Shown here piece by piece: positions 48,870 to 50,981 of a stretch of DNA of 64,000 nt. The stretch is from Myxococcota bacterium. GTDB lineage: Bacteria; Myxococcota_A; SURF-8. A model generated the notes under the pieces. The model was not told where the DNA came from and searched no databases. It saw only the letters and a list, made by a program, of their open reading frames with translations. The DNA is taken from the NCBI GenBank assembly GCA_963674735.2, contig CAXXQS010000002.1:1024001-1088000 (forward strand), read 5' to 3'. The translations under genes were made by a program, and so were the position numbers. The first letter of the stretch is position 1. Each line of letters opens with the position of its first letter.

Positions 48870-49058
48870 GGCGGCATCTCCGGCTCACACCATCCCGTTC
48901 CATTCCTTGATTTGTTGGCAGATTTCAGGTGAGTCGAAGTAATTTCTCAGCCGGCATTATTTCATATCAAACGGATGCCATCGTCTCACAAACCACGTTC
49001 GGGAGGCTGTGTAAACTCTTTGATACACACAGTCAGCCAGTAGCGACTGTTATCGGTG

Positions 49059-49994
49059 TCAAGCGAAATTCGGGTTCCAGGCTTCGTTTTTCCGCATCAT
49101 CGTGTTGAGAATGAGGACCAATTTTCGCATGCAGGCCACCACCGCCGTCATCTTCGGTTTGCCGCGTCCGACCAGCCGCTGGTAGTGTCCGCGAATCACC
49201 GGGTTGTGTTGAATCGCCACCAGCGTCGGCATGTAGAGCGCCGTGCGCAGGCGATGACGACCGCCGCCGGTCATGCGTTTACCCCGAAACGTTCCGCTGT
49301 CCCGATTCATGGGCGCCACGCCGATCAACGCCGCGATCTGCCGCCGGTTGTAGATCCCCAGCTCCGGCAGATCCGTCACCAGAAGATTCGCCGTGCACGC
49401 GCCGACGCCCGGCATCGTTTGGAGCCGCGCGGCCCGGTCGCTGCGCTCCCGATCCGATGCAATGGCCGCCGCGATGGCCCGATCCAGCCGCTCGATTTCC
49501 CGTTCGATCACCTCCAGAATGCGGTGCAGGCTTTGTCCGATCGTCCGATCGCCCACGTGTTCGGTGCGGTTTTTCTCCATCGTGCGCATGGCGACCAGCT
49601 GCCGCCTCCGTGAAGACAGGGCTTTTAACAGGAGGGCGGTTTCGCCGAGCGTTTCGTTCGGTGCGGGACGCATGGCGGCTGCGTAGCGTGCGATGATGCC
49701 CGCATCGAGTCGATCCGTTTTCGCCATCACGCCGACGGCGCGGGCATAATCCCGGATGCGCCGGGGATTGACCACCGCCACCGGCCAACCCGCTTTCTGA
49801 AGACGTTTGCACAGCTCCCGTTCGTAGCCGCCGGTGGCTTCCATCACGACGCCCTCCACCTCGATCCGCTTCAACGAACGGACGAAGCGTGTCATGCCGG
49901 CTTTGGTGTAAGCGTAGCGGACGCACGTGCTTTCGCCGTCGACGGCGACATCGAAAACGGCTTTGCTGACGTCGATCCCGATCCATTTCTTCAT
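49059..49994 (-). CDS. IS110 family DEDD transposase/recombinase
   Basis: GIDVSK, MEATG, KTDRLDA (DEDD); PGVG, G.AP..RDSG (catalytic Ser region), KMTAVVACMRKL. Confidence 0.95.
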   Translation of the reverse strand: MKKWIGIDVSKAVFDVAVDGESTCVRYAYTKAGMTRFVRSLKRIEVEGVVMEATGGYERELCKRLQKAGWPVAVVNPRRIRDYARAVGVMAKTDRLDAGIIARYAAAMRPAPNETLGETALLLKALSSRRRQLVAMRTMEKNRTEHVGDRTIGQSLHRILEVIEREIERLDRAIAAAIASDRERSDRAARLQTMPGVGACTANLLVTDLPELGIYNRRQIAALIGVAPMNRDSGTFRGKRMTGGGRHRLRTALYMPTLVAIQHNPVIRGHYQRLVGRGKPKMTAVVACMRKLVLILNTMMRKNEAWNPNFA

Positions 49995-49997
49995 GGC

Positions 49998-50200
49998 GCA
50001 CCCTTCCTTGCCAATACGGGCTCATTTCGATTACAATGGCCCCTGCGACTGTTCGGGTTTTCCCGGACGAAACGGACGGCGGATCCGGCTACAAAACGGG
50101 CTCATCAGGCCCCAGGATGGGACGATCTCGCCGCCCACCACGGCCTCCCGCTTGCTACGGGAGGTCGTTTCATCTTATCATCACAAACGATGACAGTCGC
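49998..50200 (-). ncRNA. Putative IS110 bridge RNA (5' hairpin, target-binding loop, donor-binding loop)
   Basis: Minus strand: CCTCCCG/CGGGAGG hairpin; CCCATCCT and GTAG match target GCCCATC-CT-AC; AACAGTCGC and CAAG match donor AACAGTCG-CT-TG; ends approximate. Confidence 0.8.
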
Positions 50201-50219
50201 TTGAAAGGGATAATACAAG

Positions 50220-50284
50220 GATGGGCAACTTGTTGCCCATCTTCTACACTTGAATCGCGATGGGCAACAAGTTGCCCATCCTAC
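50220..50284. repeat. Pair of inverted GTAG-type REP palindromes (left copy interrupted by the IS110)
   Basis: GATGGGCAACTTGTTGCCCATC ... GATGGGCAACAAGTTGCCCATCCTAC. Confidence 0.85.
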
Positions 50285-50300
50285 TCCAGCTACTCCAGTT

Positions 50301-50981
50301 TTATTCCTGCAATGAATTGCTAAACGTATTGTAAGGCTCGTAAACGGTCCGGCAACCGGTGAAGACGGCCTCCATGGCGTCGTCGTCTTCGGGAAAGGCG
50401 AATTCGGGGAGGCAGTGCGTGATCGGCGGGATGAAGGCGCGGATACACGCGCGCAGATCGGTATGGGTGTCGCATGCTTGGTCCGTTACCTCGTGCGCCA
50501 GGGCATCGTCGATCGTCGCGGCGGTCCAGGTCGGGAAGGCGCTGGGTGGGTTGATCATATAACCGTAAGGCAACTCGGCCCATCCGGTAACGCGGGTGTA
50601 TTCGGAGTTCGCGTTGCCGTCGAACAGACCGTATTCGGGACCCAACCACGCATACTTGAAGGCGGCGGTAGGCTGAGAAGTCGATACATCAGCGCGGTGG
50701 CTTTCGCACTGCACGGCTTTTCCACCCGCTTCGCTGGGGGCGAATCGCACCCAGGCCGCCTGACAAAAAACGCCTTCGCAACCCGAGTCGGCGCTTTCAC
50801 AGGCTGCGATCCATCCGTCAAACTCGCTTTCCGAATCCGTCGCGACACCCGAACTCGCCTGCCAACAGCGCGGCTCGCAAGCGGCATCCCACCCCGAATC
50901 GTCGCGGCTCGATCCGCAAGCGCTGATCAAGGCGATCCAAAGGCCGATGACGACCGACAACCACAGCTGTTTGATGAACAT
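50301..50981 (-). CDS. Cys-rich hypothetical lipoprotein
   Basis: Lipobox ISAC; about ten further Cys; AAGGAG RBS. Confidence 0.75.
   Translation of the reverse strand: MFIKQLWLSVVIGLWIALISACGSSRDDSGWDAACEPRCWQASSGVATDSESEFDGWIAACESADSGCEGVFCQAAWVRFAPSEAGGKAVQCESHRADVSTSQPTAAFKYAWLGPEYGLFDGNANSEYTRVTGWAELPYGYMINPPSAFPTWTAATIDDALAHEVTDQACDTHTDLRACIRAFIPPITHCLPEFAFPEDDDAMEAVFTGCRTVYEPYNTFSNSLQE

What the first reader, a model, noticed from the sequence alone, without database searches (positions are those of the whole stretch)
50188..50203. A 16-bp inverted copy of the donor site inside the IS110 left end
Seen: plus-strand CGATGACAGTCGCTTG matches the junction donor CGATAACAGTCGCTTG at 15/16, including the CT core and both guide-paired flanks, but in opposite orientation. 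In the circle the two copies form an inverted repeat with a 12-nt loop holding the -10 box. The predicted transcript would begin near CAAGCGACTGT, which is complementary to the donor guide ACAGTCGC. Inference: this could be an autoregulatory decoy where the recombinase-RNA complex blocks its own promoter, an anti-guide that masks the donor loop, or a second recombination site. I do not recall this in the IS621 model, so it may be a new control layer.
Basis: partly seen in the sequence, partly recalled or inferred. Interest (0 to 1): 0.78.

Follow-up and report, generated by a model that had tools for sequence, protein, structure and literature searches.

The report
Subterminal inverted repeat in IS110 element
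A bridge-RNA insertion sequence carries, just inside its left end, a near-perfect inverted copy of its own right-end recombination site; the copy is real and conserved in a few close relatives, but its role is not settled.

Summary
Window 50188-50203 is a 15/16 inverted copy of the right-end donor half-site plus core (49055-49042), extended by the first two left-end bases. It lies in an IS110-type element on the minus strand, present in 8 identical copies, each inserted at CT beside a REP hairpin. In the circular form the two arms would flank a 12-nt loop holding the -10 box of a TTGACA-N17-TATTAT junction promoter.

It is not a family-wide feature. A significant repeat with this geometry occurs in 3 of 24 comparable elements (G000, G001, G004). 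All three lie in one 8-member clade, where the other members keep only a degraded motif. Two further elements have a shorter hairpin across the core. Three enterobacterial relatives have none.

The copy matches the junction (CTTG) better than the donor guide's own flanks, so its partner is the right end, not the guide. Predicted leader-guide RNA pairing is strong in G000 (0.93) but absent in G001 (0.00).

Closest known: the subterminal inverted repeats of IS1111 elements, reported as absent or "short and imperfect" in the IS110 type. I read it as a lineage-restricted repeat of that kind, probably acting on DNA. An RNA anti-guide remains possible. Interest is moderate.

The parts
50188..50203 (-). 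Left arm of the inverted repeat (the finding). Reads CAAGCGACTGTCATCG in element orientation, at left-end positions +15 to +30.
   Evidence: 16 bp, 1 mismatch, 0 of 2000 shuffles reach the score. Identical in all 8 copies.
49042..49055 (-). Right arm: CGATAACAGTCG (left donor half-site) plus the core CT at the right end of the element. In the circle the next two bases would be TG, from 50217-50216.
50204..50217 (-). Left-end tip TGTATTATCCCTTT. It holds the right donor half-site start (TGTAT) and the -10 box TATTAT (50215-50210). Bases +3 to +14 form the 12-nt loop between the arms.
   Evidence: Ends fixed by 8 copies and the intact REP form. TGTAT is invariant in 15 of 15 aligned relatives.
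50218..50219 (-). Left copy of the core dinucleotide CT (target-site duplication).
   Evidence: CT flanks both ends in 8 of 8 copies.
50220..50241 (-). REP target hairpin GATGGGCAAC AAGT TGCCCATC (9-bp stem, 4-nt loop). Its 3' arm is the left target half-site and abuts the core.
   Evidence: Layout as described for ISPpu10 targets.
49057..49062 (-). -35 box TTGACA of the junction promoter, overlapping the transposase stop codon TGA (49061-49059).
   Evidence: read directly from the sequence. A TTGA overlapping or just after the transposase stop is visible in most relatives listed.
49059..49994 (-). IS110-family DEDD recombinase gene, 311 aa.
   Evidence: PF01548 E=3e-22; PF02371 E=8.3e-19.
49995..50166 (-). 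Bridge-RNA body. It comprises the 5' stem-loop (50166-50143), the target-binding loop with left target guide CCCATCCT (50121-50114), and the donor-binding loop with left donor guide ACAGTCGC (50052-50045).
   Evidence: The target guide changes with the target flank across relatives (CCCATCCT, CCGACCT, CCACCCT against flanks cccatcct, cccgacct, ccaccct).
50172..50180 (-). Extended -10-like motif TGATAAGAT, about 7 nt upstream of the 5' stem-loop. This is a possible internal promoter that would give a bridge RNA without the leader.
   Evidence: Sequence reading only. Similar TA-rich hexamers occur at the same place in relatives. Not tested.

Best explanation
The 16-mer is the left arm of a lineage-restricted subterminal inverted repeat of an IS110-type bridge-RNA element. 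Its partner is the last 14 bases of the right end (left donor half-site plus core CT). In the circular or joined form this extends by the first two left-end bases.

Shown: the repeat exists, is far beyond chance, is kept in three diverged elements, and follows the junction sequence rather than the RNA guide's flanks. At the junction the arms bracket the -10 box.

Inferred mechanism: the repeat acts on DNA. [quoted passage not shown] That gives a 16-bp hairpin containing the core. The hairpin would hold the right-end tip next to the left-end start and stabilise the joined donor site. This would be a donor-side counterpart of the target-side stem-loop reported for ISPpu10. Complementarity of the leader RNA to the donor guide follows automatically, because the guide copies the donor half-site.

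The repeat is dispensable: sister elements have lost it.
For: - Ends and repeat. Significance: 0 of 2000 shuffles.
- Same geometry (arm at +15, 12-nt loop) in G001 (12 bp, 1 mismatch, p=0.001) and G004 (p=0.000), at 59% and 57% protein identity.
- Left-end bases +15 to +26 are 10/12 identical to G000 in each of G001 and G004, while the leader after +27 is unalignable.
- One compensatory double change lies in the distal stem (C-G in G000, T-A in G004), and a second position pairs only in G004.
- The arm reads CAAG in G000 and G001 and CAGG in G004. This complements the junction CTTG better than the guide's 3' flank (CAGG in G000, CTGG in G001 and G004).
- Predicted single-strand DNA hairpin at the junction: -14.9, -12.3 and -10.6 kcal/mol, with z of -5.4, -3.7 and -4.1.
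- Two other elements (L072, L073) have 10-bp hairpins that also enclose the core, with z of -3.1 and -4.8.
- Literature context: single-strand or copy-out excision of IS110 elements (bioRxiv 10.64898/2026.08.31.748434, section read; 10.1101/2025.10.25.684509, abstract). A target stem-loop enhances ISPpu10 integration (10.64898/2026.03.19.712850, sections 7-8).
Against: - No experiment or RNA/DNA structure data exist for this element.
- The repeat is not significant in 19 of 24 comparable elements, including the sisters G008 and G009, so it cannot be essential to the mechanism.
- IS621 needs only a 22-bp donor when the bridge RNA is supplied in trans (PMC11208160, passage).
- The hairpin would enclose the cleavage site and the right donor half-site. 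That could hinder strand exchange rather than help it.
- The covariation rests on one pair among three related sequences.
- No circle junction was seen in contigs of 3 runs, so the joined form is inferred.
Confidence: 0.4

Rival explanations
1. RNA anti-guide. Transcripts from the junction promoter begin at about left-end +16 with AAGCGACUGU. This sequence pairs with the left donor guide ACAGUCGC in the donor-binding loop and masks it until the leader is removed or displaced. Bridge RNA made from the circle would thereby be throttled.
For: - The minimum-energy fold of the G000 left-end RNA uses this helix.
- The mean probability of guide-leader pairing is 0.93, and forcing the guide unpaired costs 8.9 kcal/mol.
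- The C-to-U change in G001, L068, L069 and L073 would keep a G-U pair.
- The arm starts exactly where the -10 box predicts the transcript start.
Against: - Pairing probability is 0.00 in G001 and 0.46 in G004, although both keep the repeat.
- The arm extends 4-5 nt (CATCG) and 3-4 nt (CAAG) beyond the guide. These extensions match the right-end junction, not the guide's flanks.
- In L072 and L073 the arm lies at +8 to +21, mostly upstream of any junction-promoter start.
- A conserved -10-like motif just before the 5' stem-loop could give a leaderless bridge RNA.
- The transcript start is unmapped, because no RNA run is listed.
Confidence: 0.25
2. Operator or decoy. The recombinase-RNA complex binds the inverted half-site as well as the true donor. 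Two complexes would flank the -10 box and shut off the junction promoter.
For: The arms sit symmetrically around the -10 box and discriminator. The copy contains the half-site, the core and TG. Donor-arm-only 'half-match' recognition is reported for IS621 (abstract).
Against: The true donor already overlaps the promoter spacer and the -10 box, so binding there should repress without a second site. The feature is lost in sister elements. There are no binding data.
Confidence: 0.1
3. Second recombination site. The guide-loaded recombinase recombines the right end with the inverted copy and flips the element body, as the related invertase Piv flips pilin segments.
For: The half-site plus core is present in inverted orientation 1.15 kb from the right end. 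The relation of Piv to IS110 transposases is noted in PMC11187229 (passage).
Against: All 8 copies have the same orientation, and the A/G mismatch is on the same side in each. No joints or strand switches appear in contigs of 3 runs. Only 2 nt of the right donor half-site are copied.
Confidence: 0.05
4. Relic without function. An old fold-back or template-switch copy of the circle junction, decaying at different rates in different lineages.
For: The distribution is patchy: degraded in G008, G009, L068, L069 and L075 within the same clade. The copy includes TG from the left end, as expected if it was copied from a junction.
Against: A 15/16 match, together with 10/12 identity of each of G001 and G004 to G000 over +15 to +26 at 57-59% protein identity, is not expected for neutral sequence. 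The leader just downstream has diverged beyond alignment.
Confidence: 0.15

Closest known systems
Subterminal inverted repeats (sTIR) of IS1111-family elements
   Same: A near-perfect inverted repeat of more than 10 bp set inside the element ends. At the circle junction the two arms lie about 10-12 bp apart, around the joined promoter (PMC11187229, passages).
   Different: IS1111 repeats are 11-13 bp, with terminal extensions of 7 bp on the left and 3 bp on the right, and the non-coding RNA region lies downstream of the transposase gene. Here the left extension is 14 bp. The right arm reaches the very end and includes the core. The RNA region lies upstream, as in the IS110 type. [quoted passage not shown]
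IS621 / IS110-type bridge-RNA recombination
   Same: DEDD recombinase. Upstream 223-nt non-coding left end with a 5' stem-loop and two guide loops. Left target and left donor guides identical to the target and donor top strands. CT core, REP target and a promoter rebuilt at the junction (PMC11208160, passages).
   Different: No inverted donor copy turned up in text searches (find mode, passages only) of three bridge-RNA papers (PMC11208160, PMC13626964, 10.64898/2026.03.19.712850). Three enterobacterial IS110-type elements at about 42% identity have none. IS621 itself was not retrieved.
Target-encoded stem-loop of ISPpu10 ('dual-match')
   Same: An inverted copy of the guide-matched left half-site lies a few bases away and can fold with the strand displaced by the guide. 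The REP target of this element has exactly that layout.
   Different: In ISPpu10 the stem-loop lies on the target, upstream of the core. Here the repeat is on the donor and spans the core and the right half-site. A donor-side role is my inference.
Piv inversion sites
   Same: A relative of IS110 recombinases acts on inverted repeats. The relation is noted in PMC11187229. The details of the inversion sites are recalled, not read here.
   Different: There is no evidence of inversion here.

Membership tests
IS110 family, IS110 type (bridge recombinase element) | DEDD RuvC-like N-terminal domain plus C-terminal Tnp domain | tested here: met
   PF01548 E=3e-22 and PF02371 E=8.3e-19.
IS110 family, IS110 type (bridge recombinase element) | Long non-coding region upstream of the recombinase gene and a short right end | tested here: met
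   The left end is 223 nt. The right end is 17 nt after the stop codon, including the core.
IS110 family, IS110 type (bridge recombinase element) | Non-coding RNA with two loops whose guides match target and donor around a CT core | tested here: met
   CCCATCCT matches the target flank plus core. ACAGTCGC matches the right-end tip plus C. The target guide changes with the target flank in relatives. This is by sequence only. No Rfam family matched.
IS110 family, IS110 type (bridge recombinase element) | Site-specific insertion with a 2-bp core at both ends | tested here: met
   8 of 8 copies are inserted at the same REP position with CT on both sides.
IS110 family, IS110 type (bridge recombinase element) | Circular intermediate with a junction promoter | tested here: inconclusive
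   A TTGACA-N17-TATTAT promoter would form on joining (sequence reading). No junction was seen in contigs of 3 runs.
IS1111 family (defined by its subterminal inverted repeats) | Subterminal inverted repeat of 11-13 bp, perfect or near-perfect | tested here: met
   16 bp with 1 mismatch.
IS1111 family (defined by its subterminal inverted repeats) | Terminal extensions of 7 (or 6) bp on the left and 3 bp on the right | tested here: not met
   14 bp on the left. On the right the arm includes the terminal core.
IS1111 family (defined by its subterminal inverted repeats) | Non-coding RNA region downstream of the transposase gene | tested here: not met
   The region is upstream.
ISPpu10-type structured REP target | Stem-loop formed by the left target half-site and an upstream inverted copy, abutting the core | tested here: met
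   9-bp stem and 4-nt loop at 50241-50220, directly before CT, in 8 of 8 copies.

The most novel reading that the evidence does not exclude
The repeat is a donor-side structural module. [quoted passage not shown] The junction then folds into a hairpin that the guide-loaded recombinase can still read, as integron attC sites and CTX phage fold single strands into recombination sites (recalled analogy). The same sequence, once transcribed, doubles as an anti-guide. One 16-mer would then couple the DNA form of the intermediate to bridge-RNA activity.
Probability: 0.15. Interest if true: 0.75.

Novelty: new variant of a known kind. Interest (0 to 1): 0.4.

Why it matters
Bridge recombinases are being developed as programmable genome editors, and how the element is excised and how the donor is read are still debated (cut-out or copy-out; double- or single-stranded circle). 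A natural element whose donor site is built into a conserved hairpin-forming repeat gives a simple pair of mutants, arm scrambled and arms co-varied. These can test whether donor DNA structure or a leader anti-guide modulates recombination. If neither has an effect, the finding only adds that IS110-type elements can carry IS1111-like subterminal repeats.

Tried and rejected
- **Rfam.** A scan of 48900-50400 at E up to 1 gave only weak microRNA-like hits on the REP palindromes and one weak sRNA hit below threshold. No bridge-RNA family matched.
- **RNA evidence.** No RNA holder was listed for the element.
- **Circle junction.** Contigs of 3 DNA runs from one study showed no joint across the element ends. 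The 1202-nt element unitig has about 8-10 times the flank depth.
- **More relatives.** A phylum-wide search of 401 genomes added no new carriers beyond G001, G004, G008 and G009. The viral contig scan found none.
- **Longer repeat.** The DNA folds of G001 and G004 suggested the repeat runs on to the -35 box. Gapped local alignment with shuffles did not extend beyond 16 nt, so I do not claim it.
- **Terminator assembled at the junction.** Rejected, because the tail after the stem is U-poor and not conserved in G001 or G004 (sequence reading).
- **IS621 itself.** A distant DNA search of E. coli genomes with a plasmid IS110-type element gave related elements, but none I could identify as IS621.
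- **Papers.** PMC166490 and PMC219399 are not held, so what I say of them is recalled or second-hand. Supplements were not seen. The ISfinder-wide tables in the supplements of PMC11187229 may list other IS110-type elements with such repeats.

Full report
**What is there.** The finding lies in the left non-coding end of an insertion sequence on the minus strand. The element encodes a 311-aa recombinase at 49994-49059, with the two IS110-family domains PF01548 and PF02371. The genome holds 8 copies at 98-100% identity.

I lined up all 8 copies with their flanks. Each has ...GATGGGCAACAAGTTGCCCATC-CT on the left and CT-AC... on the right. The same palindrome elsewhere in the genome continues ...CCCATCCTAC. 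So the element sits at a CT inside a REP repeat, and CT is present at both ends. The left end starts TGTATTAT at 50217, and the right end finishes ...CGATAACAGTCG plus CT at 49042.

**The observation.** In element orientation, left-end bases +15 to +30 (50203 down to 50188) read CAAGCGACTGTCATCG. This is the reverse complement, with one mismatch, of the last 14 right-end bases followed by TG, the first two left-end bases. That arrangement exists only after the ends are joined.

The spacer between the arms is 12 nt, TATTATCCCTTT. Joining would also create TTGACA (49062-49057, overlapping the stop codon), a 17-nt spacer and TATTAT (50215-50210). The right arm is thus almost the whole promoter spacer, and the left arm begins where transcription should start.

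None of 2000 shuffles of the leader reached the repeat score. Both arms are identical in all 8 copies.

**The rest of the element fits the bridge-RNA model.**
- The left end contains a 5' stem-loop (50166-50143).
- One loop carries CCCATCCT (50121-50114), identical to the target flank plus core.
- A second loop carries ACAGTCGC (50052-50045), identical to the right-end tip.
- In an alignment of 15 relatives these blocks are conserved, and the first guide changes with the target flank.
- This matches the published description: left guides pair with the bottom strands of the left target and left donor (PMC11208160, passages).
- No Rfam family matched.

**Relatives: how the sample was built.** I collected relatives from one genome per species, from metagenome contigs and from plasmids.

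24 distinct elements had both ends recognisable and entered the repeat test. I dropped the following:
- extra copies of the same element;
- broken or partial genes (L034, L035, L039, L040, L059, L062, L065, L106, L107);
- contigs lacking the left-end start or masked there (L036, L074, L077, L081, L084, L085, L090-L092);
- L093, L095 and L096, near-duplicates of the L089/L094-type element;
- elements whose ends my motif rules mis-assigned or that I did not take forward (L031, L087, L046, L050);
- elements for which no guide/donor match was found (L098-L105, L109); and L108, which failed the pipeline's coverage filter.

**Relatives: results of the repeat test.**

| Element(s) | Repeat found | p (shuffles) |
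|---|---|---|
| G000 | 16 bp, 1 mismatch, arm at +15, 12-nt loop | 0.000 |
| G001 | 12 bp, 1 mismatch, same geometry | 0.001 |
| G004 | 12 bp, 1 mismatch, same geometry (16 nt with one gap) | 0.000 |
| L072, L073 | 10-bp stems, loops of 3 and 6 nt, enclosing the core and TGTA | 0.03-0.04 |
| Other 19 | none | above 0.05 |

By eye, three enterobacterial IS110-type elements at about 42% identity have no copy.

**Relatives: phylogeny.** I built a protein tree of 26 rows: the 24 elements plus L074 and L077. G000, G001 and G004 fall in one clade of 8, with support 99/100. In that clade G000 pairs with G008 and G001 pairs with G009. The sisters keep only degraded versions of the block: CAGTGCGTTTGT in G008, and CAG[AT]GCGATTT in L068 and L069. 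The simplest history is one origin at the base of this clade, followed by repeated decay.

**What is the partner of the copy?** The donor half-site ACAGTCGCT is the same in 21 of 24 elements. The informative bases are those outside the guide match.
- On the loop side the arm reads CAAG in G000 and G001 and CAGG in G004. This complements the junction CTTG better than it complements the RNA sequence 3' of the guide (CAGG in G000, CTGG in the other two).
- On the far side, G000 has CATCG opposite CGATA, and G004 has TTATT opposite AATAA. That gives one C-G to T-A double change, and one position paired only in G004.

So the copy tracks the right end and the junction, not the guide. Complementarity to the guide follows because the guide itself copies the right end.

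**RNA level or DNA level?**
- *RNA.* For a transcript starting at +16, the G000 fold pairs the leader with the guide: mean probability 0.93, and 8.9 kcal/mol lost if the guide is forced open. The same calculation gives 0.46 for G004 and 0.00 for G001, although both keep the repeat.
- *DNA.* As single-stranded DNA, the joined ends fold into a hairpin enclosing the core in all three:

| Element | Energy (kcal/mol) | z |
|---|---|---|
| G000 | -14.9 | -5.4 |
| G001 | -12.3 | -3.7 |
| G004 | -10.6 | -4.1 |
| L072 | -8.8 | -3.1 |
| L073 | -11.8 | -4.8 |

- In L072 and L073 the arm lies mostly upstream of any junction-promoter start.
- A TA-rich, -10-like motif sits just before the 5' stem-loop in most clade members (50180-50172 in G000). 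It could yield leaderless bridge RNA.

I therefore lean towards a DNA-level role, but the evidence is indirect.

**Comparison with what is known.**
- Siddiquee et al. (PMC11187229, passages) define IS1111 elements by subterminal inverted repeats of 11-13 bp, with 7-bp left and 3-bp right extensions. [quoted passage not shown] This element is IS110 type by gene order and RNA, yet it carries a 16-bp repeat with a different offset: 14 bp on the left, none on the right.
- Find-mode text searches of Durrant 2024, Hiraizumi 2026 and the ISPpu10 preprint turned up no mention of an inverted donor copy in the left end.
- Recent preprints report single-strand or copy-out excision. Another reports that a stem-loop formed by an inverted copy of the left target half-site enhances ISPpu10 integration. 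The REP target here has that same layout.
- These reports make a donor-side fold-back plausible, but that step is my inference.

**Verdict.** The interpretation as a new control layer is not established. What is new is its presence, length and exact overlap with the donor half-site, core and junction promoter in an IS110-type bridge-RNA element. I rate it a new variant of a known kind, of moderate interest.

Noticed in passing
window 50220-50241 and 50261-50282; many places in G000: A REP-like 22-bp palindrome, GATGGGCAAC(A/T)(A/T)GTTGCCCATC, is scattered over all three contigs and often occurs in convergent pairs. It accounts for many of the 40-odd short matches in the own-genome search. All 8 IS copies sit at its 3' side.
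   Followed up: partly
L031 and L087, right end and following bases: In a Gemmatimonadales MAG and a metagenome contig, the right end of a related element is followed directly by about 70 nt of a second left end. This is a natural head-to-tail junction or a tandem remnant.
   Followed up: no
window 50152-50181, plus strand: A promoter-like site, TTGCTA-18-TATCAT, lies antisense to the bridge RNA leader. Its expected start falls at about 50188, the first base of the inverted copy. An outward RNA would begin with a sense copy of the donor half-site. It scores 9 of 12, which is weak.
   Followed up: no
window 50210-50239, minus strand: In the integrated state the REP flank offers TGGGCA 18 nt upstream of the left-end TATTAT (9 of 12). 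This possible hybrid promoter could drive weak bridge RNA expression from integrated copies.
   Followed up: no
window 50172-50180 and the same alignment columns in relatives: Extended -10-like motifs lie about 7 nt before the 5' stem-loop in most clade members: TGATAAGAT in G000, TGTATAAT in G008 and TGTTATGAT in G004. This suggests an internal promoter for a leaderless bridge RNA.
   Followed up: partly
L034, L035 (Terriglobia); L059, L062, L065 (G009): Some copies of related elements carry premature stops or truncations beside intact copies in the same genome.
   Followed up: no
L110 (E. coli plasmid NZ_CP123239.1): An IS110-type element sits immediately next to a Hok/Gef toxin gene on an IncF plasmid. 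Many of the partial E. coli matches covered only the flanking Hok-region segment of the query.
   Followed up: no
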